Notes under the pieces: model-generated
Told to the model about the DNA's origin: nothing
What the model saw: the letters and a program-made list of their open reading frames with translations, nothing else
The model's database searches: none
NCBI GenBank assembly: GCA_015494595.1
Contig: WGAX01000183.1
Span: forward strand, 1 to 42,878
DNA from: Nitratiruptor sp.
GTDB taxonomy: Bacteria > Campylobacterota > Campylobacteria > Campylobacterales > Nitratiruptoraceae
DNA length: 42,878 bases
Direction: 5' to 3'
Part shown: positions 3,125 to 39,635 of the stretch, one piece after another
How the letters are laid out: every line of letters starts with the position of its first letter
Numbering within the stretch: position 1 is the stretch's first letter
Position numbers and translations under genes: made by a program

Positions 3125-3900
3125 TGAAAGAGATCTTAATAACAAATGATGATGGATTTGAGTCTTTAGGATTAAGCGCACTTATTGAGGCTATGCGAAA
3201 ACTTGGCAATGTGACAGTAGTGGTGCCAGCTAGTGAAAAGAGTGCCTGCGGACATAGTCTTACACTTACAAAGCCTCTGCGATTTATAGAGATTGAGGAT
3301 AATTTTTACAAACTTGAAGATGGCACGCCAAGCGATTGTATCTATTTGGCTCTGCACGCACTCTATCCAGAGAATAAAAGACCCGATTTAGTGGTAAGCG
3401 GTATCAATAGAGGCGCAAATATGGGAGAGGATATTACCTACTCTGGCACGGTGGCAGGAGCGATGGAGGCAGCCTTATATGATATACCCTCTTTTGCCAT
3501 TAGCCAGGTGTGCAACAGTAACTGCGAGCAGATGGAGCTTACTATCGGTTATTCCAATGCTAAAAAAGTGGCTTTTGAGATTGCAAAAAAGATTTTGCAA
3601 GAGGGCTTTCCTCTTGGCAAAAGAAAGCTTTTAAATATCAATATTCCTCCTACAAAAGAGATTAAAGGCTACAAAATCACAAAAGCTGGATTTAGACTCT
3701 ATGCAAATGAGGCACACCTGCACAGAAATCCAAGAGGGCTGGAGTATTGGTGGCTGGGACTGCATCCACTTGAGTGGGTGCCAAGTGAGCAAAGAGATTG
3801 CGATTTTGAAGCAGTTGCAAATGGTTATGTCTCTATTACTCCTATTAAAGCAGATCTCACTGCATATGAAGAGATGCAAAAATTAAAGAGTTGGCTATGA
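3124..3900 (+). CDS. surE: 5'/3'-nucleotidase SurE
   Basis: ILITNDDG, GTPSDC and VVSGINRGANMGEDITYSGTVAGAMEA. Confidence 0.97.
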   Translation: MKEILITNDDGFESLGLSALIEAMRKLGNVTVVVPASEKSACGHSLTLTKPLRFIEIEDNFYKLEDGTPSDCIYLALHALYPENKRPDLVVSGINRGANMGEDITYSGTVAGAMEAALYDIPSFAISQVCNSNCEQMELTIGYSNAKKVAFEIAKKILQEGFPLGKRKLLNINIPPTKEIKGYKITKAGFRLYANEAHLHRNPRGLEYWWLGLHPLEWVPSEQRDCDFEAVANGYVSITPIKADLTAYEEMQKLKSWL

Positions 3901-4604
3901 GATTTGCTAGGTGTAGAGAGCTTTTTGGCAAAGATTTTGAAAAAATCTCTCAAGCAAAAGTATTAATTTTAGGAGTTGGAGGTGTGGGAAGTTTTACCCT
4001 TGATTGTCTGTATAGAAGCGGAATAAAAGATATTACTATTGTCGATTTTGACAGCTATGACATAACCAACCAAAATCGCCAAATCGGAAGCGAGCATATA
4101 GGTAAAATTAAAGTCGATGTACTTGCAAATCTCTATAAAGGAATAAAAAAGATTAATACAAAAATCGATAATGAGTGGGTAGAGCATTTTGATTTTTCGC
4201 CTTATGATATAGTTATTGATGCTATAGATGATATGGGGGCAAAAGTAGCCATTGCCAAAAAGTGCGCCCCTAAACTTATCTCCTCAATGGGGAGTGCAAG
4301 AAAGTGTGATCCTACAAAGATAGAGGCAGCCTCTATCTGGAAAACCTATGGTGATCCCTTTGCTAAAAAGCTTCGCTACGAGCTAAAAAAGAGCGGTTTT
4401 AAGGGAGATTTTTTGGCAATTTTCAGCCCAGAAGCGCCAAGATGCAGCACAAAGGGAAGCTTTGTGGGAGTAACAGGAAGCTTTGGTCTAGCTATATGCG
4501 CAAAAGCGATTGAAAGAGTAGTTAATGCAAGAAGTAGCCATTGTCATACCTCTATACAACGAAGAGAAAGTAGTACGCCAGACTCTCCTGGAGCTAAGAG
4601 ATAA
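3897..4604 (+). CDS. tcdA: ThiF/MoeB-family tRNA threonylcarbamoyladenosine dehydratase
   Basis: GVGGVG, TNQNRQ, IDAID, SSMGSA, DPFAKKLRYEL and GSFVGVTGSFG. The tail overlaps the next gene by 80 nt. Confidence 0.85.
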   Translation: MRFARCRELFGKDFEKISQAKVLILGVGGVGSFTLDCLYRSGIKDITIVDFDSYDITNQNRQIGSEHIGKIKVDVLANLYKGIKKINTKIDNEWVEHFDFSPYDIVIDAIDDMGAKVAIAKKCAPKLISSMGSARKCDPTKIEAASIWKTYGDPFAKKLRYELKKSGFKGDFLAIFSPEAPRCSTKGSFVGVTGSFGLAICAKAIERVVNARSSHCHTSIQRRESSTPDSPGAKR

Positions 4605-5205
4605 GCGTCCAGATGATGCTATCATTGTGATAGATGATGGCTCAAGAGATAGAAGCTACGAGCAAGCCTGTATACAAGGCGTCTATCTTCTCTCTCATCT
4701 TGTCAATCTTGGGCAAGGAGCAGCCCTACAAACAGGTATAGAGTTTGCCAGAAAACTTGGATGCAAATATGTAGTTACATTTGATGCAGATGGACAGCAC
4801 TGCGCAGATGATATAGAAAAGTTCATAGAGATTTTAAGAAGAGATGAAGCAGATATAGTCCTTTGCTCTAGATTTTTAGGCTCTGCCCTCAATATTCCTC
4901 CTTGTAGAAGATACTTCTTGCGCTTTGCAGCTCTTATTGAGCAGATTTTAACAGGACTCAAACTTACAGATGTCCATAATGGCTTTAGAGCAATTAATAT
5001 AGCTAAATTTCCAACATTTGCCATTAGCCAAAACCGTATGTCTCACGCTTCAGAAATCATTGATCTCATAAAACATCTTAAAATGCGCTATGTAGAAAAG
5101 CCCTGTACCATTCGCTACAGTACATATTCACTTCGTAAAGGGCAATCAATGATTAATAGTATTAATATACTTTTTGAGTTTATTTTAGGAAAGGCTATTA
5201 AATGA
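4525..5205 (+). CDS. GT2 glycosyltransferase, DPM1/GacI/PpgS-like polyprenyl-phosphate sugar synthase
   Basis: IVIPLYNE, IDDGSRD, NLGQGAALQTG, TFDADGQH and TDVHNGFRA. It is followed directly by a DUF2304 gene. Confidence 0.9.
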   Translation: MQEVAIVIPLYNEEKVVRQTLLELRDKRPDDAIIVIDDGSRDRSYEQACIQGVYLLSHLVNLGQGAALQTGIEFARKLGCKYVVTFDADGQHCADDIEKFIEILRRDEADIVLCSRFLGSALNIPPCRRYFLRFAALIEQILTGLKLTDVHNGFRAINIAKFPTFAISQNRMSHASEIIDLIKHLKMRYVEKPCTIRYSTYSLRKGQSMINSINILFEFILGKAIK

Positions 5206-5531
5206 TAGTAATCAAAATCTTTTTGATTCTCATCTTAAGCATTGTCTTTTTACTTCTAGCACTCTCTAGCAGATTTCGCACCTACCAGCGCCTTATTATT
5301 GTGGCATTTTACATTTTATTATCATTTTTAATCATTTTTCCTCAAAAAGCAGATAAAATCGCAGCCTTTTTTGGAATTGGGAGAGGCGTAGACCTTATTA
5401 TCTATCTATCTATTGCCATTTTATCTCTTATCGTAGCTATTTTGTATGCCAAAGTTAAAATGAATGAGCGAGCTCTTACAAAAATTATACGCACACTTGC
5501 TATAATGCAAGCCAAAAAGTGTCATGAATAG
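5202..5531 (+). CDS. DUF2304 family small membrane protein (GacJ/Rv3632-like partner of GT2)
   Basis: 109 aa, 3 TM, FGIGRGVDLIIY motif and C-terminal LTKIIRTLAI. Overlaps the GT2 stop. Confidence 0.85.
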   Translation: MIVIKIFLILILSIVFLLLALSSRFRTYQRLIIVAFYILLSFLIIFPQKADKIAAFFGIGRGVDLIIYLSIAILSLIVAILYAKVKMNERALTKIIRTLAIMQAKKCHE

Positions 5532-6408
5532 AGTCTACTCAAAAGAGCTGATTCAGAGCTGGAAACAGGCTCTTATTGACACCTATGGATTTGAAGAGTA
5601 TATGGACTTTTTAATACAACCCACATTTACTAACACCTATCTTACATATCTACCCCATATCAACTATACTGACAGAGAAAGAGATAACATAGCAGATCTG
5701 TTAGAGCTTGCAAAAGAGAGCAATTACCAAATACGCATCCTCAATTTTGCCTACAAAGATTTCAAAGAGTTTGATACTGTTACACTGCGTCTCAATGTGA
5801 AAGGGTGCAAAAATGCCCAAGATCTTAAAAAGATGTACAAAAAATTGGCTAAGAGATCTATTAACAGAGATAAAAGAAAATATCATCTTACCATTAAAAG
5901 AAATAACGATATTGAGCTCTTTTATGCTATTATCTCTTCAATCTATAAAGATCACGGTACACCAATTTTTCCAAAAGAGCTTTTAGTAAACCTCAAAAAG
6001 TATATGGAGCACAATCTCAATTTTCATATCTTCTATGATAAAAAGGAGCCAATTGGAGGCTTTATGAGCTTTTTTGATAATAAAATTTTAACATTTCAGA
6101 TGGGAGGCCTCCTAAAACAGTATAAAAAGATCTACTCCGGTTACTACTTGCAACATCTTCTTATTATAGAGAATATGGAAAATTTTGATATAGAAGTTGT
6201 CGATTTTGGACGATCTCCCTATAATGGAGGCACCTACTTTTTCAAAACCCGTTTTGGAGCAAAACCTGTAAAAATCGATATTCTCACAAATAGAACAAAA
6301 AATATCTATCAAACCTACTCTTTTGCCTCTGCAATATGGAAACGATTACCAAAATCTTTAGCAAATACCATTGGACCAAAAATTACCAAGTATTTAGTGG
6401 ATTTATGA
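5524..6408 (+). CDS. FemAB-related GNAT-fold protein (similar to the PEP-CTERM/XrtA-associated family)
   Basis: HGTPIFPK, VDFGRS..GGTYFFKTRFGAKP and IWKRLPKSLANTIGPKI resemble FemAB-like proteins of EPS loci. Confidence 0.75.
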   Translation: MNRVYSKELIQSWKQALIDTYGFEEYMDFLIQPTFTNTYLTYLPHINYTDRERDNIADLLELAKESNYQIRILNFAYKDFKEFDTVTLRLNVKGCKNAQDLKKMYKKLAKRSINRDKRKYHLTIKRNNDIELFYAIISSIYKDHGTPIFPKELLVNLKKYMEHNLNFHIFYDKKEPIGGFMSFFDNKILTFQMGGLLKQYKKIYSGYYLQHLLIIENMENFDIEVVDFGRSPYNGGTYFFKTRFGAKPVKIDILTNRTKNIYQTYSFASAIWKRLPKSLANTIGPKITKYLVDL

Positions 6409-7337
6409 AAACATTTCTAAAACTCTCTATCACCATTTTTATCATCTATTGGCTTTTTAAAGATGTAGATTTCTCTCTCCTACTGAAAACTTTGCAAAAT
6501 CTTCACCCCTTTGGCATCTGTGCAACCTTGTTAGCAGTTTTTTTGAGCGATCTTCTTATATCTTTTCGCTGGTACTATTTAAGCCAATATACACACCCCT
6601 TTGTAAGCACTCTTGAAGCCACTATGCTAGCCTTTTTTCTTAATATCTTTGCACCTGCTAAATTAGGGGATTTGGTAAAAATCTACTATCTGCATAAAAA
6701 AGATAGTAAAGACCCAAAACACTCCTCCTCTCTTTTTTTAATAGAGCGATTTTTTGATGTAATCCTCCTTGCATTGCTGATTACTTTTAGTACCCTTTTT
6801 ATTTTTCCCAATACCATTGCGCTTTTTCTTAGTCTCTCTCTTTTGGCTCTTATTGGATGCACAATTTTTATACTTCTCCATAGAAAAATACTTCATACAC
6901 TCCTCTTTTTCGTAAAAATAAAAAAGATTCGGCGCCTACTTTTTCATATTGCTCAAGCAATCCAAAGCAACCTGACTCCCAAAAGAGCACTCACTACATT
7001 TTTCTTAACCCTTGCAGTATGGATGGGATATTACCTCAATAATTTTATATTTTTTCTTTTTACCACCGATTTTGATCTCAATTTTCAGCAGATCTTCACC
7101 GCTTCCACCCTCGCTTTTGCCGTCTCTGCCATTCCTTTAACACCAGGAGGTATTGGCACATTTCAAGCTGCTTTTATCCTTACGCTTGGATGGTATGGAA
7201 TCGGTAAAGAGGAGGCACTGGGAGCATCAACTGTTTTACAGCTACTCTACATTTTACCCGCTACTCTTTTTAGTATCTATCTTTTTATAACCAAAGACTT
7301 TTTAGGAAAAAAAGATGTATCTACCAAATATATATAA
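6405..7337 (+). CDS. lysylphosphatidylglycerol-synthase TM domain / flippase-like protein (UPF0104)
   Basis: FRW, NIFAPAKLGDLVK, ERFFD and IPLTPGGIGTFQ motifs, about 8 TM. Start moved to ATG 6405, which overlaps the upstream stop. Confidence 0.85.
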   Translation: MKTFLKLSITIFIIYWLFKDVDFSLLLKTLQNLHPFGICATLLAVFLSDLLISFRWYYLSQYTHPFVSTLEATMLAFFLNIFAPAKLGDLVKIYYLHKKDSKDPKHSSSLFLIERFFDVILLALLITFSTLFIFPNTIALFLSLSLLALIGCTIFILLHRKILHTLLFFVKIKKIRRLLFHIAQAIQSNLTPKRALTTFFLTLAVWMGYYLNNFIFFLFTTDFDLNFQQIFTASTLAFAVSAIPLTPGGIGTFQAAFILTLGWYGIGKEEALGASTVLQLLYILPATLFSIYLFITKDFLGKKDVSTKYI

Positions 7338-8130
7338 AACCTCCCCTTTGTGGCTTACAATAGATATTGAGGAGTTGGAGGATGCAAATTTTGGTATTAC
7401 ACCCAAAAAGAGGCTCCACATTGATTACGAAGCTCTTATAAAAAAGTGGGATAGACTCTGCAAAAAGCATCAACTTCTCTCTACTGCATTTGTATTAGGA
7501 AAATTTGCCAAAAAGTATCCCCATCTCATACAATATCTAGCCAATGCAGGACACGAAATAGCTTGCCACGGATTAAGGCATAAACTCATCTATACTATGC
7601 CGTTTGATACCTGGTATGAAGAGACAAAAGAGGCAAAAAAGATTTTAGAAGATATTACAGGAAGCAAGATAGAGGGATTTAGAGCCCCAAGCTGGAGTAT
7701 GCCTTTTCAAAAACGCTACTACGAGGCACTAGCAGAGTTAGGCTTTGCCTACTCATCCTCCTATTTTCCCTTTAAAACCTATATGTATGGTAATAGCATA
7801 GATCGTAAATTCCCTTTTATGATCACCACTACATCTGGTACTTTTATAGAGATTCCTATCCCTAAACACATTATCCCTTTTAGTGGTGGATTTTATATGC
7901 GCACCCTCCCCTTTTTCCTTATTCGCTACCTTTTTCATAATCTAATGAAGAGAGGAGTTAAACCGATAATCTACACACACCCCTATGAGCTTTTACCAAA
8001 CCTTTTTGGTAGATTCAGAAAGGATGTGCAATTCAATCTGCCCTATATTTTAACTTTTATAGCACTAGAGGATAGCTATAAGAGATTTGATACAATAGTG
8101 CAACTCTTTGGAAGGAAAGAGAATGTATAA
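7315..8130 (+). CDS. CE4 polysaccharide deacetylase (DUF3473/XrtA-associated type)
   Basis: LTIDIEE, HEIACHGLRH, GFRAPSWS, SGGFYMR and YTHPYE. No signal peptide is visible. Confidence 0.9.
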   Translation: MYLPNIYKTSPLWLTIDIEELEDANFGITPKKRLHIDYEALIKKWDRLCKKHQLLSTAFVLGKFAKKYPHLIQYLANAGHEIACHGLRHKLIYTMPFDTWYEETKEAKKILEDITGSKIEGFRAPSWSMPFQKRYYEALAELGFAYSSSYFPFKTYMYGNSIDRKFPFMITTTSGTFIEIPIPKHIIPFSGGFYMRTLPFFLIRYLFHNLMKRGVKPIIYTHPYELLPNLFGRFRKDVQFNLPYILTFIALEDSYKRFDTIVQLFGRKENV

Positions 8131-9115
8131 AAACGCAACTTTTGCGCTTCTGCTTCTACCTTTACTATTTCTAGGATGCGCAAAAACTGCAGAGCAAAAA
8201 GAGATTAAAAAGAGCAAAGAGGGTATTACTATCCGTTTGGAGGGTACAGTATATCCCAGTAAAAAAGAGGCAATTATTGCTCCAATGACTGGACGCATCA
8301 AACATATTTTTGTGAAACCTGGTGATAGAGTTGCAAAAAATAGCCTTATTGCAAGTTTTGAGACAATTGTTACAGAGTATGATGTACAAAAGACCGTACA
8401 GGAGTTGGAATACCTCAAAAAGCTCAAAAAATTTTTGCAAGCTAGTAAAAAAGAGAATATGAGCTTGGCCCTTGTCAATATAGCTAGAGAAAAGTTGGAG
8501 AGGCTCTCAAAACTACGGGCAAAAGGATATGCTGATACATTGGAGTATGATAATGCAAAAGCACTTTATGCTTCAAGTCTACATAACAGGTATAGTGAAA
8601 AAGAATCAAAAACAGAGAAACTGCACTTTTTGGATGAGAGAATCAATGTTACAAAAAATGAGCTTTTGAAACTGCAACACACCTTGGCACTCAGTCAAAT
8701 TAGAAGTAATCTTAGCGGTTTTGTAGCCGATATTGATACGCAGGTAGGAGAGTATGTAGCTAAAGGCACCAAATTGGGGCATATTGTAAATTTGGACAAG
8801 GTTATTGTAAAAGCAGGGGTAGCACCAGGACTGCTCCCCTTTATTAAAAAAGGTAAAAAGGTTAAAATAGACTTTATTACAACACCCCCTTACAAAGTGG
8901 AATCTACAATCTCAAGAGTTGTTATGGTAGTAGATCCAGATTTTAAAAGAATGACTGCAGAGATTGAAATTCCAAATAAAAATTACCTTCTTCAAGAGGG
9001 AACAAAGGCGCTTGTAACAGTCTATTTAACAAAAGAGGAGCAGCAATTTATCAAAGAGAACTTTTTAGATCGAGCTAATCAAACTCTCTATGAGGTAAAA
9101 TCTTTCAACCGATAA
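8123..9115 (+). CDS. HlyD/RND-type periplasmic adaptor (membrane fusion) lipoprotein
   Basis: Lipobox LFLGC. Lipoyl halves APMTGRIKHIFVKPGDRV and IRSNLSGFV..VGEYVAKG flank a coiled coil. ATG at 8123 follows GGAAGG. Confidence 0.88.
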   Translation: MYKNATFALLLLPLLFLGCAKTAEQKEIKKSKEGITIRLEGTVYPSKKEAIIAPMTGRIKHIFVKPGDRVAKNSLIASFETIVTEYDVQKTVQELEYLKKLKKFLQASKKENMSLALVNIAREKLERLSKLRAKGYADTLEYDNAKALYASSLHNRYSEKESKTEKLHFLDERINVTKNELLKLQHTLALSQIRSNLSGFVADIDTQVGEYVAKGTKLGHIVNLDKVIVKAGVAPGLLPFIKKGKKVKIDFITTPPYKVESTISRVVMVVDPDFKRMTAEIEIPNKNYLLQEGTKALVTVYLTKEEQQFIKENFLDRANQTLYEVKSFNR

Positions 9116-9117
9116 GA

Positions 9118-10572
9118 CTATTTTGCTTCCATAATCTGAAGCTTTTTATAAATTTTCTCAGCACTATCCAAAAATGCCTGAATAATAGAGGCCTCTACAA
9201 GTCTATTTTTTTCCTTTGCTATTTTTTCCACCGCCTCTTGATGAGAGAAAGGTTTTCTATATGCTCTTGGGCTTGTAAGCCCTATATAAAACTCTGCTAA
9301 TGCAACAATTTGTGCCAACAAAGGAATATCTTTACCCTTTAAGCCATACGGGTAGCCTCCACCATCATAACGCTCATGATGATACTTAATAATTGGCGCT
9401 ATAGGATAGACATTATTAATAGGCTCCACGAGTACTGAGCCTACAATAGGATGATAACGAATGAGATCCAACTCCTTTTTCTCAATCTTTTTACTATCAA
9501 GAAAATTTTCAATTTTGCCTATCATTCCTATATCATGCAATCTTGCCCCTATTCTAAGCACATCAATATGTCTCTCATCCAAAAAGATATTTTTCGCAAT
9601 TTCCACACTAACAAGCTCTACTTTTCTTGCGTGATCTTTAAAATAGGGACTTTGCAACTCTAAAACTCTATTGGCAAGAAGCAAAAAGTTAAGGTAGTTT
9701 GCCACCATTTTGCTGCTTGCATCCATATTCTCAAAATAGCCTCCTGCAAGATCCAAAAAGGCACCAATTTCTGCAATCTGCTTGGTATCAAGAGGAGCAT
9801 TTGTATACACTTCTAAGATATAGGGTGTATTTCTAATATAGAAGGCTTTTTTAAATTTATGTCTTTTAGGATATTTAAATACATCGACTTTTGTAGGATT
9901 TTCTCTATTTTTTAAGATCATCCCTGTAGCATTTGTCGTCTTTAATAAAAGAGAGCCCACAAACTTCAAAAATGTCTGGGTTCTATATTGAAAACTCATA
10001 ACATTTGTCAAAATATTTTTTGAGCTATCCATAATAGTACTAAGATGTATCTCTTTGTGCAGCTCGTTAATACGCAAATAGTAAGAGAGCAACATCATTA
10101 AAAATCCCTCAATCTCCTCTATAGCCAACTCCTTTTTGCTATAAATCCTCAAAAGGGCCTTTTCATCACAAGATTCAAAAGAGTAGACAGTATACTCCTC
10201 TTTTTTACTCTGTTTTTTAATATCTTTTTTATATACTCTACTCTCTATCTCTTCGCTCTCATCTTTCCCCTGTGCTTCTAAGACATAAATATCTCCCCTT
10301 CGCAAATAGATTGCTATATTATCTGCTCCTATATATCTTTGGTATTCACTTAAAAAAGCCTCCACATCCCCAATTTTACGCAAGGTAGCCAACTTTTTAA
10401 AAGCTCTATTTTGATTTCTAAAGCGAAATTTTAAGATTGCATTATCTCTAAAAAGCTTAATAGAGAGCAGGATAAATAGAATAGCTACTATTAAAAAAAC
10501 ATACCAGAAATTGAGCGCAATAAAAAAGATCACATCATCTACTCGCTCAGCAAAATTAATACTTCCTAACAC
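9118..10572 (-). CDS. membrane-anchored HD-GYP domain protein (partly degenerate)
   Basis: N-terminal TM. C-terminal LHDIG, HP, HHERYDGGGYPYGLKG and RAYRK motifs. Confidence 0.85.
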   Translation of the reverse strand: MLGSINFAERVDDVIFFIALNFWYVFLIVAILFILLSIKLFRDNAILKFRFRNQNRAFKKLATLRKIGDVEAFLSEYQRYIGADNIAIYLRRGDIYVLEAQGKDESEEIESRVYKKDIKKQSKKEEYTVYSFESCDEKALLRIYSKKELAIEEIEGFLMMLLSYYLRINELHKEIHLSTIMDSSKNILTNVMSFQYRTQTFLKFVGSLLLKTTNATGMILKNRENPTKVDVFKYPKRHKFKKAFYIRNTPYILEVYTNAPLDTKQIAEIGAFLDLAGGYFENMDASSKMVANYLNFLLLANRVLELQSPYFKDHARKVELVSVEIAKNIFLDERHIDVLRIGARLHDIGMIGKIENFLDSKKIEKKELDLIRYHPIVGSVLVEPINNVYPIAPIIKYHHERYDGGGYPYGLKGKDIPLLAQIVALAEFYIGLTSPRAYRKPFSHQEAVEKIAKEKNRLVEASIIQAFLDSAEKIYKKLQIMEAK

Positions 10573-12745: not shown

Positions 12746-12753
12746 AAATGCCC

Positions 12754-13656
12754 TTAACCTTTAATGAGATACAGTAGAAGCTTCCATCGTAAAAGCTCTC
12801 CATCATAATAGACATCACTATACTCAAAAGGAAGAAGTGAGACAATATATCCTCGACCATAAGGCAGCAGAGTTACTAGAGGACGACCTCTTGTATCCAC
12901 AATCAATTTTTTCCCTTCTATAAGAGGATAGATCTCCATAAAATTGTAAATAACTAGTTTTAATCTTTTTATACCTTTAATAAGAGAGGCTTTTTGATCA
13001 ATAATAAAACTTTTTGTTGAGGGCATATAATTGATAAGATCAATTTTTTTTGCCTGAAAAAGATAAGGAGTGACAGGTTTGTGCAAAAACCGCATACCCC
13101 CTACTGCTCTGTAAAGATTTTTGCGTATCCTCCAGGCGGCTATCTCCCCTTCCCTATTAAAAATATCATACCGAGTAGAAAAGAGGCCAAACTCTACCCA
13201 AAGCACTCCCCCCTGTTTAACCCAGGAGCGCAAAATCTCCTGCTCTTTTGCTGAGATATTTAAGGAGTAAGCAATATTTTTAAAAAGATCTCGACTTACT
13301 CTTTTATACTCTTTTATCCATAAAGGTCGAATATAGATAAAATCAAGAGATTGAGGCTCTTTTTGCAAACGCCAAAAATTTACATCTTCAATACTTTTAG
13401 CATTATAAGTAAGATTAATACTTTGATAAAATTTTGGATTGAATTTTCCTTTAACTTCAAACTCCCTCTCATCAATAAAAGGAAATTTATGAAAAATATC
13501 ACTCCCCTTCTGGACTGATACAAGATCTTCCACGGGCTGATTATAGATAGTAAGTGTAACTTCGTTTGTCAACTCCTTTTCTATACTATTTTGACTACTG
13601 GCACATCCACTTAAAAAAAGAAGGCTTAGTAAAAGTGATATGAAATATCTCATCAT
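12754..13656 (-). CDS. lipoprotein of unknown function (possible class-I GATase-like fold)
   Basis: Lipobox FLSGC. LRSWVKQGGVLWV and YGRGYIVSL resemble DUF4350/ThuA-like folds. Confidence 0.65.
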   Translation of the reverse strand: MMRYFISLLLSLLFLSGCASSQNSIEKELTNEVTLTIYNQPVEDLVSVQKGSDIFHKFPFIDEREFEVKGKFNPKFYQSINLTYNAKSIEDVNFWRLQKEPQSLDFIYIRPLWIKEYKRVSRDLFKNIAYSLNISAKEQEILRSWVKQGGVLWVEFGLFSTRYDIFNREGEIAAWRIRKNLYRAVGGMRFLHKPVTPYLFQAKKIDLINYMPSTKSFIIDQKASLIKGIKRLKLVIYNFMEIYPLIEGKKLIVDTRGRPLVTLLPYGRGYIVSLLPFEYSDVYYDGELLRWKLLLYLIKG

Positions 13657-13662
13657 CTTCCT

Positions 13663-15216
13663 TTAAAATGCTGCATAGTAGTAATAATCCAAATCTTTAA
13701 ACACCTTTTTCATATAAAGAAATGTTATAAGCCAAAAAGTTATACTACCTACTAACAATCCTACTACAGCAAGATATTGATCAACTATATTGGCTAAAAT
13801 AACTCCTACTGTAAAATCTATAGCTACAGCAATAACTATAGCCTGCACCACAACCTTTTGCCTAGAAAAAGAGAAAAGAATTAATGTATTCATCAACCCA
13901 CTTGTCAAAAAAGCATAAGCTATGGCACTTGCTATAAATACATATTCTGATATTTCAGTAAAAGGCAAACGATCAGCACTTACATAGTGACTCAGTGTCT
14001 TGACAATGGTATATATAACTATTATCGTTATAAATGCAAATATTGTAAAGAGTCTATTTACCCTTTTATAAAATTTCTCAAAATAGCTATTAAACTCCTT
14101 GACTTGCCAAAGAGAGTAATGCACAACCTTGTCATTGAGCATATATAAAAACTCATATACCACAACTTCCAATACTCCCATTAACAATACAAGTACTATT
14201 AAAGCAAGATCTGTACCTACCTCATACTCCACATCAAACCAAATAAAAAACCCCCGATCAAGCGCATAAACATTCCACTCAATTAACTTATCCAATACCA
14301 AAAAAAGAAAATAGAATGTGCCATATAAAAAAAAGGGTAAAAGAGTGTAAACAAGCATAGATGTTCTTGGTAGAAGCTCCCCTTCTGAAGGAGTAGTTTT
14401 TCTTAAGTGATAGAGCTTCCTAAACCCAAAATAGATAATAATAAGATCTAATAGTGCCAATGCTAAAAATTGTGCCCAGGGAAAACCTATACCTACAATA
14501 TAGTGGATAGGCACAACAATCACTACCCCTAAAAGAAAAAAGAGTGCAATTTTGCCATACTCTTCAAATACATAATAGACACTGATACTCAAAAATAGTA
14601 CAGAAAGCAGAAAAAAGCTTAAAATAAATGGAGGGAAAAAATTGTGCTCAAAAACTTTAAATAGAGAATTAAAAAGAAAGAAAAAGAGTGTTAATAGGAC
14701 AATTTTTGCAAAACTCGCTAAATAGAGTACCTTAATACTTTTTGCTGCTAAAACATACTCATGCATCTTTAGATAGTAGAGACCTTTTCGGCCAATAATT
14801 TGTGCAGGTCCCCCCGTTACAATCATTGCTAAAAATGTCCCAAAGGCTATAATTGTAGCCGTTGCCTCATCAATCATAATATTTGACCATAAGGCAAACC
14901 CAAAAATAATCGTAGCAATAATCTGAATAAAAATAGGAATAGCAAAAGCTAAACCTCGAAGATAGTTACGAATAATTCGCTGTTTTAAGGGTGGTAGTTT
15001 CTGCTGCACAAGGGCAATGCTTGGATATGTCTTTATCTCTTTATACTTAAAGAGCTCCTTTGCCAATGCAAATACATCATCAAAACCATACTCCTCTTTC
15101 GCATCAATATCGCGTATACCATATACTTCCAGCAAAGCGGCCACTTCCCAAAAATCAAGAGGCTCTCCTCTATCTTTAGTAATAGCCAAATAGAGCTCTT
15201 CCAACCTTTTACTCAT
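13663..15216 (-). CDS. PelG-like polysaccharide synthesis/export membrane protein
   Basis: About 12 TM, 4-nt overlap with pelF. The N-terminal EVAALLEVYGI...YGFDDVFALAKEL segment resembles the PelF-adjacent membrane proteins I recall from actinobacterial pel-like loci. Confidence 0.65.
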   Translation of the reverse strand: MSKRLEELYLAITKDRGEPLDFWEVAALLEVYGIRDIDAKEEYGFDDVFALAKELFKYKEIKTYPSIALVQQKLPPLKQRIIRNYLRGLAFAIPIFIQIIATIIFGFALWSNIMIDEATATIIAFGTFLAMIVTGGPAQIIGRKGLYYLKMHEYVLAAKSIKVLYLASFAKIVLLTLFFFLFNSLFKVFEHNFFPPFILSFFLLSVLFLSISVYYVFEEYGKIALFFLLGVVIVVPIHYIVGIGFPWAQFLALALLDLIIIYFGFRKLYHLRKTTPSEGELLPRTSMLVYTLLPFFLYGTFYFLFLVLDKLIEWNVYALDRGFFIWFDVEYEVGTDLALIVLVLLMGVLEVVVYEFLYMLNDKVVHYSLWQVKEFNSYFEKFYKRVNRLFTIFAFITIIVIYTIVKTLSHYVSADRLPFTEISEYVFIASAIAYAFLTSGLMNTLILFSFSRQKVVVQAIVIAVAIDFTVGVILANIVDQYLAVVGLLVGSITFWLITFLYMKKVFKDLDYYYYAAF

Positions 15217-16706
15217 AGGTGTACTGCCGGCAAAGAGTTTAAAGATGATTCAAAAAGTTTCCTATACACACTCCAGTAATTATTGACCATATCTTCAGTT
15301 GTAAAACCTGCTACAATCACTTCCCGTGCCTTTTTACCAAGCTCTTTGGTAAATGCAGGATTTTGTAAAAGATAGATAACATACTTTGCAAACTCCTCAT
15401 ACGCTTTAGGCTTAATAATAAAACCATATCCCTCCAGTACCTCTTTTGTTCCTCCCACATCACTTGAAACCACCACTTTTTCACACGCCATTGCCTCAAT
15501 GACTGCAAAAGGAAAAGCCTCGGATATGCTCGTAAGCATCACCACATCACCCTCATTATATGCCATAGCCGGATTAGAAGTAGCTCCCAAAAAGGAGAAG
15601 TTATTTTCTAATTGCAAACTCTTTACAAGCTCTTTACATTGCAAAGCATACTCCTTATCTACCTCAGGACCATAAAACTTAAAGTGTACATCTGGAATTT
15701 GCTTAGCCACCAGAGCACAACAGCGTATATAGGTCTCCACATCTTTGAGAGGATCCAAACGAGCTACCATCACAACAGTTGGTCTATCATCTCGCTGTAC
15801 ATCCATCTTTTTAAACTTGAGTACATCAATACCATTATAGATAGTCTCAATTTTACTCTCTTTTACTCCCCATTGAAGCTCCCAGCGCTTATTATAATCA
15901 CATACAGGAGAGATCAGATCGGCAAAATGGTAGTTGAGTTTAGAGACTGTTGTAATAAGTCCCAACAGAAACTCTTTTGTCTTAAGAGGCACCTTTCTTC
16001 TAGAGGCAAAAAGATACTGCTCTCTAATATAGATTCCATGCTCTGTTAATAAAAACCGACTTTTATGTTTCTTCTTAGCAATAATACAAGGCAGACCACA
16101 AAAAGCTGCTGCAGAGGAGTGATAAATATCTGCTTTGGGAAGCTCAGGTAAAAGAGTGATAAAGAAGCGAAAAATATAGCGCAGTCCCTCAATCATATCA
16201 AAAACTGTAGGCAAATCCTGCTCTTTTACTCGATAGTGCTCCATTAAATAGCCTTTATAAATCTCCCATACCTCCTGACTTCTAAAGATCTCATAATAAT
16301 CATACTCTAAAAAGTAGTCATAAAACTCTACCAAAGCATCACCCAACCCTTCTAAATCATCCTCTTTTCTATAGATATGATTCAAAAGTTTTATAAGAAT
16401 AGGCTCCAATCTTGCTATATCTCTTTTTTGCAATGTATTAATTTTAGCTTGATAGATTCTAGCAAACTCAATATTACGAATATACTCCACCGGTTCTTCT
16501 GTTCCCCAAAGAGGGACATTAATAATATCCACAACATTAGCCGGTATAGGAAACTTTGCCTGCATATAAGGATGCATCATAATTGGCATCAAAATAAAAT
16601 CGATATTTTTAAGCTCTCTAATAAGAAGATCTGCCCAGGTACTCACTCCTCCCGTTGCATAGGGGTAGGTACCTTCACCCGTCCATACAACTTTAATTCT
16701 GGCCAT
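15213..16706 (-). CDS. pelF: GT4 glycosyltransferase PelF (DUF3492 + GT-B)
   Basis: EGTYPYATGGVSTW, LTEHGIYIRE, IYNGID, ARLDPLKD and TSISEAFPFAVIEAMA are PelF signatures. Confidence 0.9.
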   Translation of the reverse strand: MARIKVVWTGEGTYPYATGGVSTWADLLIRELKNIDFILMPIMMHPYMQAKFPIPANVVDIINVPLWGTEEPVEYIRNIEFARIYQAKINTLQKRDIARLEPILIKLLNHIYRKEDDLEGLGDALVEFYDYFLEYDYYEIFRSQEVWEIYKGYLMEHYRVKEQDLPTVFDMIEGLRYIFRFFITLLPELPKADIYHSSAAAFCGLPCIIAKKKHKSRFLLTEHGIYIREQYLFASRRKVPLKTKEFLLGLITTVSKLNYHFADLISPVCDYNKRWELQWGVKESKIETIYNGIDVLKFKKMDVQRDDRPTVVMVARLDPLKDVETYIRCCALVAKQIPDVHFKFYGPEVDKEYALQCKELVKSLQLENNFSFLGATSNPAMAYNEGDVVMLTSISEAFPFAVIEAMACEKVVVSSDVGGTKEVLEGYGFIIKPKAYEEFAKYVIYLLQNPAFTKELGKKAREVIVAGFTTEDMVNNYWSVYRKLFESSLNSLPAVHL

Positions 16707-18366
16707 CTGCTATCTGTTGTCCTATAAGAATAAGAAGTTGCGCAGAGTTGCGAATCATTGCAGTTTTTATGGTAGCTTTCTCTTCAATATAGTGAAGATA
16801 ATTTTTTAGTGCATCATTAAAATCACGATAAACAGAAAGACCCTCTATATAGCGTTTGCGTACAATTTGCAGCTTTTTATACATCAAAGCGATCTGCTGT
16901 TGAACAATATCTAAATGTTTTTGTAGCCGTTTATTCTCATTATAGAGTTTATAGATCTGCTGTGCACTCTTTTTAATCGTATCAAGCAGCCTATTTTTCT
17001 GTTTCAAAGCTTCTATTTTTACCTTTTGTTTATGCAGTTTACATGCATCTCCTCCTATTAAAGGGATCTTTACACTAACAGCTCCACTATAATTAAGCCC
17101 CTTTGCTTTTTGATGGGGAATAAGAGAAAAATCCTTTTTATACTCATAAAAGAGAGCTCCATGAAAATCGATAATAGGTAGCATCGATTTTTCACTACTT
17201 ACTACCTTTGCTTTTTTCAATCCATACAAAAGACGCATCCTTCGTATAGTGCTGTTATGCAAATACGCCTCTTTATAAAGTGTTGGCAAATCCTTTGTCT
17301 CCAATGCAAAACCAATATTCTCCAACTCTACTCTTTTAGATATATTTAGCTCTATACTACTACGCAAAAGGTGATCACTATAGGTATAGTCATAAATCTT
17401 TTTTAATAAATCTTTTCGTAGCTCCAATAGATCATTTTTTGCATCTATCACATCTACTCTCGAAGCAACTCCTACCCTACCACGCTCTTTAATAAGATTA
17501 TAAAAACGCTTCTGATTGAAATACTCTTTTTCATAAATACTTTTTAGCTCCCATGCTAAAAGAGCTTCACTATAGATTGCGACTCCAAGTAAAGAGAGCT
17601 GCTCTTTTGCATTCAAAAAATCGACTTTTGCTAGCTGCTCTTTTAAATAACGTATACGAGCTACAAGGGGATAATCTCTGTCAAAAAGGCGTTTATCAAT
17701 ATTAATACCAGCATTAACTGTCAACTCTTTATCAGTAATTAAAGAGTAGTCTATAAATTTTGCATACCGTGCGGCAGCGTTGAAATAGATTTGCCACTCA
17801 TATCTACTCTGCTCTAAAATTGCCTCTAATCTCTTAATTTTTGCATCATAACTTTTACTCTTTAAACCATAATCTTTTTGTAATAATCTTTTTAAATACT
17901 CTTGTAAAGTAAGCTTGTAGACATGAGAAGACTTTTTATGAGAATGCTGCATAACATTTTGGATAAAACTATCTTCTGTTTGCCTAAGAGGTGCGGTTTG
18001 AAATTGAGCTACTTTGTTTTTCTTTATTACTTTTACTTTTGCTTTTACTTTTTTCTTTATTGGCTTATGATCTTGAGAAATCTTTGCCGTAGAAGAGCAT
18101 TTTATATTATTACAGCGCTTAATGTAAGCATCTGTATGAAGTTTTTTGGCCTTGGCAAAAGCTGATTTTAATTCCTTTTTATTCAAATAGGGGCCAGAGA
18201 TAAAGTGATAATACCCCCTCTTTTTACAAATAACTCCCTTTGGAAACATAGCCAAAAAAGTCTTATCTTCATTTTTATAGACTCTTTTTTGCATAGCATG
18301 CTGAATACACCAACCACCTAATAGAGGATAAACAAGTATAATTAAACCAACTATAACCCTACCCAT
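16693..18366 (-). CDS. TolC-family outer membrane efflux protein with N-terminal SPOR-like domain
   Basis: Signal peptide, SPOR-like segment (YHFISGPYLNKKELKSAFAKAKKLHTDAYI), Lys-rich linker, then two OEP repeats (LTLQEYL, VGVASRVDVIDAK, LPIIDF, VKIPL, YIEGLS). Start at ATG 18366 or TTG 18372. Confidence 0.85.
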   Translation of the reverse strand: MGRVIVGLIILVYPLLGGWCIQHAMQKRVYKNEDKTFLAMFPKGVICKKRGYYHFISGPYLNKKELKSAFAKAKKLHTDAYIKRCNNIKCSSTAKISQDHKPIKKKVKAKVKVIKKNKVAQFQTAPLRQTEDSFIQNVMQHSHKKSSHVYKLTLQEYLKRLLQKDYGLKSKSYDAKIKRLEAILEQSRYEWQIYFNAAARYAKFIDYSLITDKELTVNAGINIDKRLFDRDYPLVARIRYLKEQLAKVDFLNAKEQLSLLGVAIYSEALLAWELKSIYEKEYFNQKRFYNLIKERGRVGVASRVDVIDAKNDLLELRKDLLKKIYDYTYSDHLLRSSIELNISKRVELENIGFALETKDLPTLYKEAYLHNSTIRRMRLLYGLKKAKVVSSEKSMLPIIDFHGALFYEYKKDFSLIPHQKAKGLNYSGAVSVKIPLIGGDACKLHKQKVKIEALKQKNRLLDTIKKSAQQIYKLYNENKRLQKHLDIVQQQIALMYKKLQIVRKRYIEGLSVYRDFNDALKNYLHYIEEKATIKTAMIRNSAQLLILIGQQIADGQN

Positions 18367-18409
18367 TGACAAACTTTTTATGGATTTATTGAAGCCAAGT
18401 CTATCGAAA

Positions 18410-18418
18410 ATTATCGCA
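18410..18418 (-). promoter_or_regulatory. candidate extended -10 promoter of the tolC-pelF arm
   Basis: TGCGATAAT on the minus strand about 45 nt upstream of the start, one mismatch to TGnTATAAT. Confidence 0.45.
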
Positions 18419-18466
18419 ATTTTTCATAAAATTTTGAGGGTTTGTAAGTTTTGCAAAGAGGAGTAA

Positions 18467-18553
<87 letters not shown>

Positions 18554-18566
18554 GTTTTGAAGCAAA

Positions 18567-18575
18567 AGTATAGCA
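18567..18575 (-). promoter_or_regulatory. extended -10 promoter for tRNA-Leu
   Basis: TGCTATACT 13 nt upstream of the mature tRNA. Confidence 0.7.
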
Positions 18576-18576
18576 T

Positions 18577-18607
18577 AAAATCTTCCCGAAGGCAACCCTT
18601 CGGAAAG
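18577..18607 (-). terminator. Rho-independent terminator of atpE
   Basis: Minus-strand hairpin CTTTCCGAAGG-GTTG-CCTTCGGGAAG followed by ATTTT, immediately after the atpE stop. Confidence 0.7.
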
Positions 18608-18611
18608 TAAA

Positions 18612-18917
18612 TTATCCTAAGAATGGATTTGCATAAAGTGCAATAAGTGCAATTACAAGCGTATAAATAACTTGCGCTTCAATCATCGCAAGTGCAATAA
18701 ACATTGTAGTCATAAGCTTACCGCCAAGTCCCGGGTTTCTTGCAGTTCCTGCAATTGTAGCAGCTGCAGTATGTCCCATACCGATACCACCACCTGCTGC
18801 AGCAATACCCAAACCAACACCAGCAGCCAATACGCTGTAAGCTTGAATCATACTCTCACCATCACCAGCAAATGCAAAGCCAGCAAATGCTACCAACAAA
18901 AGAAGCAACTTTTTCAT
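18612..18917 (-). CDS. atpE: F0F1 ATP synthase subunit c
   Basis: GxGxG helix, ARNP loop, catalytic Glu in MIEAQVIY and AGGAGG Shine-Dalgarno. Confidence 0.97.
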   Translation of the reverse strand: MKKLLLLLVAFAGFAFAGDGESMIQAYSVLAAGVGLGIAAAGGGIGMGHTAAATIAGTARNPGLGGKLMTTMFIALAMIEAQVIYTLVIALIALYANPFLG

Positions 18918-18994
18918 AAAATCCTCCTGATATATTTTGCAAAGTCCGTTCGGCTTGCGTGTCCCTACTTGTCACTTTGCAGTGCAATTCTACA

Positions 18995-19729
18995 CTAAAA
19001 ATTTTTAAAAATTATTGAAGTTTGAGTTTTTTTTTGCTGAATAAATTCCAATAATTGAGACATATAGGAGGAGATATTCTCCCATGGGTTCGCACCGTCT
19101 TGCTCAGTTACATAAACATATTGATATGTTGCTATATCACTTTTTACTCTTTGAAAATCATCAACTGCATGTAGCAAAATCGCACTCTTTGCTATTGTAC
19201 TTTTATTGGGTATGCTTTTTGAATGCTCTCGCACTACAATAATATCTGCTAGCCTTTCAAATCTCTTATCAATAAAAGTCCCCGGATTAAATACCACAAT
19301 TGAAAAGCTCTTTTTGATATACTTAGTTACATCTTCATAATACTTTAATGATCGTAAATCTGTACTAACTTCATCTATAAAAATACCATGAATACCCCAC
19401 CTTTTATACTCCCTCCAAGCATCAATGCGCCGCTTTAAAGATGTGAGATTTCTTCGAGCATAAGAGCTATAGACATAACCAAGAACAGTTATATTGGCAT
19501 CCTCAAGTGCTTTAATTGCAGAGGCAAAATTGGATTCTACCCTTGCAAAATCGCCATTGGCAGGATTAATAATGACCAAAAATTTAATAGTAGGATAGGC
19601 TCTTTTATATGCAATAAGCTTTTGGATTTTTGGATCGTTGTATGTTGGAAAATGGTAAAAAGGGATTAAAACCCCTTCCATTCCATATAGTGCTATGCTA
19701 AGCAAAAGTCCAAAAAAGATCTTACCCAT
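18995..19729 (-). CDS. spherulation-specific family 4 protein (GH135, Sph3-like alpha-1,4-GalNAc hydrolase), secreted
   Basis: Signal peptide plus LIPFYHFP, IINPANG, VLGYVYSSYARR, GIFIDE, VFNPG and ADIIVVRE, matching Spherulin-4. Confidence 0.85.
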   Translation of the reverse strand: MGKIFFGLLLSIALYGMEGVLIPFYHFPTYNDPKIQKLIAYKRAYPTIKFLVIINPANGDFARVESNFASAIKALEDANITVLGYVYSSYARRNLTSLKRRIDAWREYKRWGIHGIFIDEVSTDLRSLKYYEDVTKYIKKSFSIVVFNPGTFIDKRFERLADIIVVREHSKSIPNKSTIAKSAILLHAVDDFQRVKSDIATYQYVYVTEQDGANPWENISSYMSQLLEFIQQKKTQTSIIFKNF

Positions 19730-36150: not shown

Positions 36151-36162
36151 AGGGTATACGCA

Positions 36163-39100: not shown

Positions 39101-39261
39101 CGCACACAAAATTTGTTCTGCTTGTTGAGCCAAGTTTTGATATGAAAAAGATTGCAACTATTGAAAAGAGCTTCTTTGATGATATTCTACGCAATATTAT
39201 CAAAAAGGACTTTTTCAAAGAGGAGCTTGATAAACTTATGAAAGAAGAGGTAAATGAATGA
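36163..39261 (+). CDS. hybrid sensor histidine kinase/response regulator with NIT-like periplasmic domain
   Basis: Two TMs, [16 protein letters not shown]-box, N/G1/F/G2 boxes and a REC domain (AEDN, FMDIQMP, ALTAH, KP). Confidence 0.93.
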
Positions 39262-39635
39262 AGCAGTTGAAGATTCTCTTAGTAGACGATGATGCAATTA
39301 CACGCAAACTTCTTATAACAATGCTTAAGCAAAATCCAAATGTCTACGAAACCCTCGAAGCTCAAGATGGGCAAGAGGCATTAGAGATTCTCAATAAAAA
39401 CAGAGATATAGATTTTGTTCTTTTAGACATTATTATGCCAGGGCGTGATGGTATTGAAGTATTGGAGTATATGCGAAAAGATCCCCGTTTTAAAAATATT
39501 CCTGTTATTGTACTAAGCACAGATGAGACACAAAAAACAAGAGCTATTGATGCAGGTGCTAATGATTTTATCAATAAACCTATTGCAGAAAAAGAGCTTA
39601 CCTACAAAATAGAGAAGTACGGCTCTTTAGAGTAG
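39258..39635 (+). CDS. single-domain response regulator
   Basis: LLVDDD, LLDIIMP, VLST and INKP. Confidence 0.93.

What the first reader, a model, noticed from the sequence alone, without database searches (positions are those of the whole stretch)
4525..19729. Non-canonical Pel-like exopolysaccharide system in a Campylobacterota genome
Seen: a clear PelF GT4 coupled to a PelG-like membrane protein, within 12 tightly packed genes in two convergent operons (stops at 9115 and 9118), plus a GH135 hydrolase nearby. Known: Gram-negative Pel needs PelA (hydrolase/deacetylase), PelB/PelC (export) and PelD/PelE, and none of these is recognisable here. Inference: most roles are filled by unrelated parts (TolC + HlyD adaptor for export, HD-GYP for c-di-GMP control, stand-alone GH135 for hydrolysis), with an added lipid-linked decoration pathway. 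This would be a distinct architecture for an alpha-1,4-GalNAc/GalN-type polymer, and I do not know of it having been described.
Basis: partly seen in the sequence, partly recalled or inferred. Interest (0 to 1): 0.9.

Follow-up and report, generated by a model that had tools for sequence, protein, structure and literature searches.

The report
Rewired Pel-like polysaccharide machine
A conserved 12-gene cluster of vent-type Campylobacterota keeps only divergent forms of the two core genes of the Pel biofilm-sugar machine and likely makes a related polymer, branches it with a predicted membrane sugar-transferase, likely switches it on through a probably inactive c-di-GMP enzyme and would export it through a TolC tube, a combination I did not find in print.

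Summary
The cluster is real: 12 tightly packed genes at 4525-18372 and a GH135 gene at 18995-19729, beyond atpE and a tRNA. PelF passes its family cut-off. Its neighbour has a predicted MOP fold and weak PelG similarity; a model supports a PelF-PelG-like complex (0.82, controls 0.00). No PelA, B, C, D or E was found in this genome (88% complete); PelB and PelD were found in 0 of 12 family genomes with the cluster.

New here: the 729-aa gene has a GT-C fold; the HD-GYP protein lacks Lys225 and Asp308 in 43 of 43 sequences, so it is likely a receptor; PelF groups with Streptomyces/Deinococcus/Thermus PelF, not canonical PelF; canonical pel occupies the same chromosomal site in two relatives. Seven core genes occur together in 26 of 26 TolC-type metagenome loci.

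No polymer, export or binding has been shown. TolC/HlyD polymer export and lipid-donor decoration each have precedents; the combination was not found in my searches. The scan found this system twice before on other DNA. Verdict: new variant of a known kind.

The parts
4525..5205 (+). GT2, PpgS/GacI-like polyprenyl-phosphate HexNAc synthase (likely makes the lipid-linked sugar donor)
   Evidence: PF00535; best NCBIfam hit PpgS NF058614 205.6 bits, below its 370 cut-off; a GT2 in 26 of 26 TolC-type loci
5202..5531 (+). DUF2304 three-helix membrane protein (GacJ/Rv3632-like activator of the GT2)
   Evidence: PF10066 57.8 bits; 16 of 26 loci; role from 10.1101/180810 passages
5524..6408 (+). FemAB-like GNAT acyltransferase, no membrane segment
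   Evidence: PF13480; TIGR03019 85 bits, below cut-off; same 21 of 26 loci as the deacetylase
6336..7337 (+). LPG_synthase_TM flippase-like membrane protein (likely flips the lipid-linked donor)
   Evidence: PF03706 151 bits, TIGR00374 over cut-off; 23 of 26 loci; L070 has a GtrA gene at this place instead
7315..8130 (+). CE4 deacetylase without signal peptide (cytoplasmic)
   Evidence: PF01522, PF11959; TIGR03006 144.8 bits, below cut-off; no hydrophobic N-terminus in the window protein or the homologues listed
8108..9115 (+). HlyD/AcrA-type periplasmic adaptor, lipoprotein
   Evidence: PF16576, PF13437; lipobox in 23 of 26 homologues; no pump gene in the cluster
9118..10572 (-). Membrane-anchored degenerate HD-GYP protein (likely c-di-GMP receptor in place of PelD)
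   Evidence: PF13487; aligned to PmGH 4MCW; residue table of 43 sequences; PmGH mutant data
10556..12745 (-). 729-aa membrane protein with predicted GT-C fold (AglB/ArnT-like)
   Evidence: model pLDDT 91.2; Z 18.9 to AglB, rmsd 7.9, 450 aligned; Z 16.7 to ArnT, rmsd 6.2, 428 aligned; Foldseek STT3 E 5e-6
12754..13656 (-). Lipoprotein of unknown family; fused to OmpA or SPOR peptidoglycan-binding domains in relatives
   Evidence: no Pfam hit; lipobox in 61 of 63; OmpA in G180; SPOR in P0240; weak DUF2194 likeness, inconclusive
13663..15216 (-). Divergent PelG: predicted MOP-fold transporter with an N-terminal extension predicted to dock PelF
   Evidence: (MATE/Wzx/MurJ fold, TM about 0.5)
15213..16706 (-). 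PelF GT4 glycosyltransferase, divergent lineage
   Evidence: NF038011 185.5 bits, DUF3492; 25% identical to canonical PelF of G016/G019; trees
16693..18372 (-). TolC-family outer-membrane channel with SPOR-like N-terminal domain
   Evidence: PF02321; N-terminal profile hits the SPOR domain of P0240 at E 9e-13, shuffled 0.005; 100-aa remnants of this domain score at the SPOR cut-off
18995..19729 (-). GH135 (Sph3-like) hydrolase with a hydrophobic N-terminus; separated from the cluster by atpE and tRNA-Leu
   Evidence: PF12138 141.5 bits; aligns to spherulin-4 5C5G with the IDE motif and a later Glu kept; same 12 of 22 genomes as the cluster

Best explanation
The cluster likely makes, branches and exports an alpha-1,4-GalNAc/GalN-type surface polysaccharide: PelF, predicted to dock directly on the PelG-like transporter, would polymerise UDP-GalNAc, a probably inactive HD-GYP protein would act as the c-di-GMP switch, a predicted GT-C enzyme would add a lipid-carried sugar, and HlyD-TolC would carry the chain out. 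Steps: (1) a GalE-type epimerase elsewhere in the genome supplies UDP-GalNAc (gene shown, specificity inferred). (2) PelF binds the N-terminal extension and C-terminal tail of the PelG-like protein, so PelE is not needed (predicted). (3) PelG-like moves the chain across the inner membrane (inferred from Pel). (4) GT2+DUF2304 load a HexNAc on undecaprenyl phosphate, the deacetylase and GNAT exchange its N-acyl group, the LPG_synthase_TM protein flips it (inferred from GacI/J/K/L and PpgS/Rv3632). (5) The GT-C transfers it to the chain in the periplasm (fold predicted, acceptor inferred). (6) The lipoprotein and SPOR/OmpA domains tether the machine to peptidoglycan; HlyD and TolC form the exit (inferred). 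(7) GH135 trims or releases the chain (inferred). Shown: gene content, order, co-occurrence, residue changes, absence of canonical parts in the searches run.
For: PelF over cut-off. MOP fold and PelG similarity. Complex model PelF with PelG-like: score 0.82, best of 3 controls 0.00; that mark was reached by 116 of 157 solved and 2 of 215 mismatched pairs; runs agree in at least 96% of contacts, partner pLDDT at least 87. The interface uses PelG-like residues 16-68, an extension found in the Streptomyces, Deinococcus and Thermus proteins (E<=3e-9) and in none of 3 canonical PelG. Hydrolases of alpha-1,4-GalNAc/GalN families track the core: GH135 in the same 12 of 22 genomes, lost with the cluster in the complete genomes G001 and G010; a GHL15-like gene in 13 of 26 TolC-type loci; GH114 beside TolC in L089. 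Canonical pel sits at the same site in G016 and G019; a third polysaccharide cluster sits there in G017. Of 401 phylum genomes 23 have PelF: 6 of this type, 17 scoring as canonical, none both. TolC, PelF, PelG-like, lipoprotein, GT-C, HD-GYP and a GT2 occur in 26 of 26 TolC-type loci with wide flanks. GT-C fold; GT-C copy number varies (three in G004), as expected of a modifier. HD-GYP changes. Precedent for synthase+HlyD+TolC and for GT2/DUF2304/flippase/GT-C. galE over cut-off.
Against: No polymer, sugar, linkage, export or ligand binding has been measured. The genome is 88% complete. PelF is only 25% identical to canonical PelF, so donor and linkage may differ. The window's PelG-like protein is below the Pfam cut-off. 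A MOP fold is also the fold of lipid-linked flippases, which fits rival 1. The HD-GYP keeps five His, the HD Asp, GYP and Arg314, and Asp305 to Glu is conservative, so activity is not excluded; it shows no homology to PelD (hhalign probability 0.6%) and no GAF hit in the window protein. HlyD was seen in only 14 of 26 loci; 11 of the other 12 run off the fetched stretch, and in G336 the orthologue lies on another contig. Nothing ties HlyD to PelG-like rather than to another pump. No periplasmic polymer deacetylase was found, whereas Pel needs one. Loci are kin: the 26 form 24, 13 and 5 groups at 90, 70 and 50% identity.
Confidence: 0.62

Rival explanations
1. Lipid-linked pathway: PelF extends GalNAc on a lipid carrier, the MOP-fold protein flips it, and the GT-C transfers or polymerises the whole glycan onto a protein, lipid or growing chain; TolC/HlyD export the conjugate.
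For: PelG-like matches WzxE and MurJ as well as MATE. The best GT-C matches are oligosaccharyltransferases. GT-C homologues follow the PelG-like gene even in distant loci with no GT2 in view (L111, L112, L118, L119).
Against: No initiating phosphoglycosyl transferase lies in the cluster. The 729-aa sequence has no WWD motif (seen in the sequence; the motif is recalled from PglB/AglB). A dedicated monosaccharide-donor module is present in all 26 TolC-type loci. Endo-hydrolases point to a long polymer. No giant or obvious acceptor protein is linked.
Confidence: 0.15
2. Two neighbours with separate jobs: PelF/PelG/TolC make an unbranched polymer, while GT2/DUF2304/deacetylase/flippase/GT-C add an amino sugar to lipid A or another envelope molecule (like the ArnT-type Francisella and Bordetella pathways; recalled).
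For: ArnT is the second-best fold match. A cytoplasmic deacetylase acting on a lipid-linked HexNAc is known from lipid A pathways (recalled). The donor genes vary between loci.
Against: GT-C lies between PelG-like and HD-GYP in one strand and stays with the core through rearrangements. The whole block is lost together in G001 and G010.
Confidence: 0.12
3. Same polymer machine, but the HD-GYP protein is an active phosphodiesterase that lowers c-di-GMP (or cleaves another nucleotide) and the synthase has no receptor in the cluster.
For: His189, His221, Asp222, His250, His276, His277, GYP kept in 42-43 of 43; Tyr/Phe at Glu185 is normal for the two-metal subfamily.
Against: Lys225 is never Lys, Asp308 never Asp, Asp183 is Asp in 4 of 43; alanine at any of these removes PmGH activity. 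An unrelated HD-GYP in L078 keeps Lys225, Asp305 and Asp308. The same changes occur in 5 of 5 distant non-TolC loci.
Confidence: 0.15
4. TolC and HlyD serve another pump or a secreted protein; the polymer stays cell-bound or leaves by another route.
For: HlyD is unlinked in G336; distant relatives of the core have no TolC (4 of 30 wide loci).
Against: TolC overlaps PelF's start in the window and directly precedes PelF in the TolC-type loci. G001, G010 and G016, which lack the cluster, have no HlyD orthologue (best E 2e-8 against 3e-118). No pump gene is linked.
Confidence: 0.1

Closest known systems
Pel system (P. aeruginosa pelABCDEFG; Gram-positive pelDEA(DA)FG)
   Same: PelF GT4 next to a PelG-type membrane protein; alpha-1,4-GalNAc-type hydrolase; a degenerate c-di-GMP enzyme domain on a membrane protein; in this family, the same chromosomal site.
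   Different: No PelA, B, C, D, E found; PelF 25% identical and in another clade; PelG with an N-terminal extension; TolC/HlyD, GT-C and a lipid-donor module added.
Bacterial galactosaminogalactan-like clusters (Agd3/Sph3/Ega3-type; PMC7229062, passages)
   Same: PelF lineage, PelG N-terminal extension, GH135 and GH114 hydrolases.
   Different: The Deinococcus and Thermus loci carry Agd3-type deacetylases and no TolC, HlyD, HD-GYP or GT-C match.
Synthase + HlyD + TolC exporters: S. meliloti mixed-linkage glucan BgsA/BgsB/TolC (PMC13438883) and cyanobacterial cellulose (PMC8892547); passages read
   Same: Polymer synthase coupled to an adaptor and TolC, no ABC or RND pump, c-di-GMP control.
   Different: Those use a single GT2 synthase-translocase and beta-glucans; here a soluble GT4 plus a MOP-fold protein and a lipoprotein adaptor.
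Lipid-donor decoration systems GacI/J/K/L and PpgS/Rv3632 (10.1101/180810, passages)
   Same: GT2 + DUF2304 + flippase + GT-C.
   Different: They decorate cell-wall polymers of monoderms and mycobacteria; here the flippase is LPG_synthase_TM or GtrA type, a deacetylase/GNAT pair is added, and the likely acceptor is a synthase-made exopolysaccharide.

Membership tests
Gram-negative Pel | PelF GT4 | tested here: met
   NF038011 185.5 bits, cut-off 100; canonical ones score 420-658
Gram-negative Pel | PelG (PF16933) over cut-off | tested here: inconclusive
   14.7 bits against 29; 30 of 49 homologues hit at E<=0.1; MOP fold
Gram-negative Pel | PelD with degenerate GGDEF | tested here: not met
   PF16963 in 0 of 12 cluster genomes, 2 of 22 overall
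Gram-negative Pel | PelB TPR/beta-barrel | tested here: not met
   PF24604 in 0 of 12 cluster genomes, 2 of 22 overall
Gram-negative Pel | PelA hydrolase-deacetylase | tested here: not met
   G016 PelA finds nothing in G000, G009, G015, G180; G336 has an unlinked 514-aa N-terminal half; stand-alone GH114 fragment at G000:C66
Gram-negative Pel | PelC and PelE | tested here: not met
   G016/G019 proteins at the pelC and pelE positions gave no tblastn hit in G000 at E<=1e-3; single-sequence queries in an 88% complete genome, identity assigned by position
Gram-positive Pel | DUF2194 PelA(DA) | tested here: not met
   PF09960 over cut-off in 0 of 5 cluster genomes; present in distant non-TolC loci
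Pel (any) | Produces partly de-N-acetylated alpha-1,4-GalNAc polymer | not testable with these tools
   needs chemistry
GT-C superfamily | GT-C membrane fold with periplasmic C-terminal domain and conserved acidic residue after the first core helix | tested here: met
   Z 18.9/16.7; D183 in 93% and E336 in 97% of 60 sequences; catalytic role inferred
Active HD-GYP phosphodiesterase | D183, K225, D305, D308 (PmGH numbering) besides the His ligands | tested here: not met
GH135 | Spherulin4 domain with acidic active-site residues | tested here: met
   PF12138 141.5 bits; DE and later E aligned to 5C5G; their catalytic role is recalled
Type I secretion / RND efflux | Cognate ABC or RND pump linked to HlyD and TolC | tested here: not met
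   none among the window genes 678-42691 or in the cluster loci; an unlinked pump was not searched for

The most novel reading that the evidence does not exclude
This is a second Pel lineage with its own machine: a dead HD-GYP domain is the c-di-GMP receptor that gates a PelE-less PelF-PelG synthase, a GT-C branches the polymer with an interchangeable lipid-carried sugar, and a SPOR-anchored TolC with a lipoprotein adaptor is the exit. It would give an HD-GYP-type receptor for a polysaccharide synthase and a synthase-made exopolysaccharide decorated by a GT-C, neither of which my searches found described, in at least three phyla.
Probability: 0.4. Interest if true: 0.86.

Novelty: new variant of a known kind. 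Interest (0 to 1): 0.72.

Why it matters
Pel is described as mechanistically very conserved (PMC7890745). This system keeps only PelF and PelG and swaps the regulator, the scaffold, the exit and the modifier, so it shows which parts a Pel-type synthase really needs. It offers a two-protein PelF-PelG complex for structure work, a candidate new class of c-di-GMP receptor, and a direct test of whether the MOP-fold PelG moves a free chain or a lipid-linked one. It is the common PelF system of a vent genus (11 of 15 relatives) and swaps with canonical pel at one site, so it may shape biofilms of chemosynthetic communities.

Tried and rejected
Pfam/NCBIfam scans left the 729-, 300- and 517-aa genes unnamed at E<=0.01. 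The genome-contig scan with one protein gave one locus. The PelG-like protein found nothing among plasmids. Lipoprotein: PDB profile search gave only noise; Atlas top hits were unnamed clusters at 0.93, MJECL34 0.92, DUF2194 0.91 with 118 shared features; hhalign to DUF2194 proteins E 0.007, probability 5%, to PelA 0.7%, so 'it is PelA's middle domain' is not claimed. HD-GYP as a PelD homologue: rejected. The roughly 700-aa genes of the Streptomyces, Deinococcus and Thermus loci as GT-C homologues: no match; three of the five scanned are Agd3-like. The GH114 on C66 as PelA: it has its own signal-like start after housekeeping genes and the G016 PelA query does not hit it; it is cut by the contig end. 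G336's PelA-like gene as a hidden pel operon: its neighbours are housekeeping genes. The seventh match (G401, E 4e-4, two stops) was dropped as noise. Promoter scan: chance level. No RNA holder was listed. The careful tree did not finish; quick trees were used. One cluster member is labelled as an archaeon by its source; not used. The Atlas look-up of the 729-aa protein did not complete. Papers: searches gave no description of this cluster; and passages of PMC10519070 gave no degenerate HD-GYP receptor of a synthase. The library lacks most subscription papers, and I saw no supplements (tables of PMC7112194, PMC7229062 and PMC12022489 could list such loci).


Full report
Observation. Twelve ORFs fill 4525-18372 in two convergent arms, with gaps of -73 to +8 bases and stops at 9115 and 9118. 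On the + strand: GT2, DUF2304, FemAB-like GNAT, LPG_synthase_TM, CE4 deacetylase, HlyD. On the - strand: TolC, PelF, a 517-aa membrane protein, a 300-aa lipoprotein, a 729-aa membrane protein, an HD-GYP protein. GH135 lies at 18995-19729, beyond tRNA-Leu and atpE. The nearest named homologues are from Nitratiruptor. The genome is 88% complete.

The core. PelF passes NF038011 at 185.5 bits but is 25% identical to the canonical PelF of two family members. The 517-aa protein models at pLDDT 88.6, matches MATE, WzxE and MurJ, and 30 of 49 homologues hit Pfam PelG weakly. A complex model of the two scored 0.82 against 0.00 for the best of three controls; 116 of 157 solved and 2 of 215 mismatched pairs reach that mark, runs agree in at least 96% of contacts, partner pLDDT at least 87. 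This supports binding, it does not show it. No PelF or PelG structure came up in my PDB searches. The interface uses the N-terminal extension (16-68) and the conserved C-terminal tail. A profile of the extension finds the PelF neighbours of Streptomyces, Deinococcus and Thermus and none of three canonical PelG. In quick trees PelF groups with those three, away from canonical PelF (SH-aLRT 100); holding four PelF of this type together with the two canonical Campylobacterota ones is rejected (p-AU 0.0002; long branches apply). Those loci carry Agd3-, Sph3- and Ega3-type genes, the bacterial clusters noted in PMC7229062 (passages).

Canonical parts. PelB barrel and PelD were found in 2 of 22 family genomes, G016 and G019, and in none of the 12 with this cluster, two of them complete. 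G016/G019 pel proteins other than PelF give no hit in the window's genome. PelA and DUF2194 were not found in G000, G009, G015 or G180; G336 has an unlinked half-length PelA-like gene. A stand-alone GH114 start lies at a contig end, and galE is present.

One site, several systems. G016 and G019 carry canonical pel directly after surE-thiF, G019 also before tRNA-Leu-atpE-pnp, the same flanks as in the window. G017 has a GT2/deacetylase/TPR cluster there. G001 and G010 have only a 100-aa ORF matching TolC's N-terminal SPOR-like domain, and no GH135. Among 401 phylum genomes, 23 have PelF: 6 of this type, 17 scoring as canonical, none both.

Conservation. The 12-gene order recurs in 6 of 11 same-genus relatives, the rest are cut by contig ends. 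G180 has the donor genes in line behind HD-GYP. The metagenome scan kept the best 80 of 183 matches, giving 78 loci; 30 have at least 3.3 kb upstream and 9 kb downstream, and 26 of these have TolC. All 26 have PelF, PelG-like, lipoprotein, GT-C, HD-GYP and a GT2; 23 LPG_synthase_TM, 21 deacetylase, the same 21 GNAT, 16 DUF2304, 14 HlyD, 13 a 477-aa gene, 0 GH135 (profiles were built from these loci). Eleven of the 12 without HlyD run off the fetched stretch. The 26 form 24, 13 and 5 groups at 90, 70 and 50% identity. Source names place members in Sulfurimonas, Caminibacter, Balnearium (Aquificota, phylum recalled; gene only, locus not seen) and Nitrospirota. The PelG-like family is large: 373 clusters at E<=1e-30, 979 at 0.001.

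Hydrolase slot. GH135 is in exactly the 12 of 22 genomes with the cluster, next to it in 4 of 11 relatives. Elsewhere the 477-aa gene takes the place; it resembles GHL15 (Atlas 0.95; Pfam GHL15 and GH114 at E about 1e-3). L089 has GH114 and L076 GH135 before TolC. This is the best indirect evidence for an alpha-1,4-GalNAc/GalN chain.

The 729-aa protein models at pLDDT 91.2. Its best matches are AglB (Z 18.9, rmsd 7.9, 450 aligned), ArnT (Z 16.7, rmsd 6.2, 428), STT3, AftA, PglB and ALG12. D183, R328, E336 and H375 are nearly invariant. GT2+DUF2304+flippase+GT-C is the set that adds side sugars in S. pyogenes and, for PpgS/Rv3632, makes the donor in mycobacteria (10.1101/180810, passages). L070 has GtrA in place of LPG_synthase_TM, and L098 has other sugar genes beside its GT2, so the donor module is exchangeable. 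The deacetylase has no signal peptide. The acceptor is inferred.

The HD-GYP protein aligns to PmGH (numbering offset for the tag worked out by me). In 43 TolC-type sequences, some redundant, Lys225 is Met/Ile/Ser, Asp305 is Glu, Asp308 is never Asp, Asp183 is Asp in 4; the five His and GYP are kept in 43, Arg314 in 42. Alanine at D183, K225 or D308 removes PmGH activity, whereas changes at GYP, R314 and K317, linked to c-di-GMP recognition, do not (PMC4159591, passages). Five distant non-TolC loci share the changes, two with GAF domains. I read it as a receptor standing in for PelD; activity is not excluded.

Export. TolC precedes PelF in the TolC-type loci. HlyD is a lipoprotein; its orthologue is in G336 on another contig and not in three genomes without the cluster. 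No pump is linked. Synthase-HlyD-TolC export is proposed for rhizobial mixed-linkage glucan (PMC13438883, passages) and cyanobacterial cellulose (PMC8892547, passages). The lipoprotein stays unassigned; OmpA or SPOR fusions suggest tethering to peptidoglycan.

Known or new. It works like Pel but fails membership on PelA-E. I read parts 1-2 of 4 of PMC7890745, passages of PMC7112194, whose main text has no hit for Nitratiruptor, Epsilonproteobacteria or TolC, and passages plus part of section 4 of PMC12022489, which reports full-length PelA in epsilonproteobacteria. Searches listed no description of this cluster; supplements were not seen. Two earlier notes of this scan describe the same system in other genomes; I met them after the GT-C and co-occurrence results, and they are not evidence. 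Verdict: real, conserved, a new variant of Pel-type synthase systems; interest 0.72.

Noticed in passing
window 3891-4604 to 18467-18917; L038, L040, L130-L132: The interval between thiF and tRNA-Leu(GAG)-atpE holds this cluster, canonical pel, a GT2/deacetylase/TPR cluster, or nothing, depending on the genome: an exchangeable exopolysaccharide slot.
   Followed up: partly
L130:2184-2486, L131:2011-2313: Two complete genomes without the cluster keep a 100-aa ORF with a signal-like start that matches only the SPOR-like N-terminus of the TolC.
   Followed up: partly
L132:2582-10410 (G017): Five-gene cluster: KaiC-like ATPase, TPR protein, PgaC-like GT2, CE4 deacetylase, unknown protein; a possible PNAG-like system.
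   Followed up: partly
L014:16920-20000 and L015:3-1510 (G015): Two tandem GT-C copies, each read as two ORFs (about 495 and 170 aa); cause not examined. G004 has three intact copies.
   Followed up: no
L111, L112, L118, L119: Distant loci of the same PelF/PelG lineage without TolC: a second short DUF3492 GT4 in L112, L118 and L119, degenerate HD-GYP in L111, L118 and L119, GH114 in L111, a GT-C homologue, and DUF2194 proteins (about 1300 aa in three, 621 aa in L118).
   Followed up: partly
L123:5810-11885 (Sulfitobacter plasmid): pelF-pelG preceded by a polysaccharide export (Wza-type) gene, another non-canonical exit.
   Followed up: no
G000:C125:15789-16673; G000:C66:1-220: A second GH135 (294 aa, twin-arginine-like start), unique to this genome among the 22, and a GH114 cut by a contig end.
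   Followed up: partly
L126:9935-11479 (G336): Stand-alone 514-aa protein matching the N-terminal half of PelA, without the deacetylase half, among housekeeping genes.
   Followed up: partly
window 34768-39635: Hpt protein, NIT-sensor hybrid histidine kinase and single-domain response regulator; not linked to the cluster by any test.
   Followed up: no
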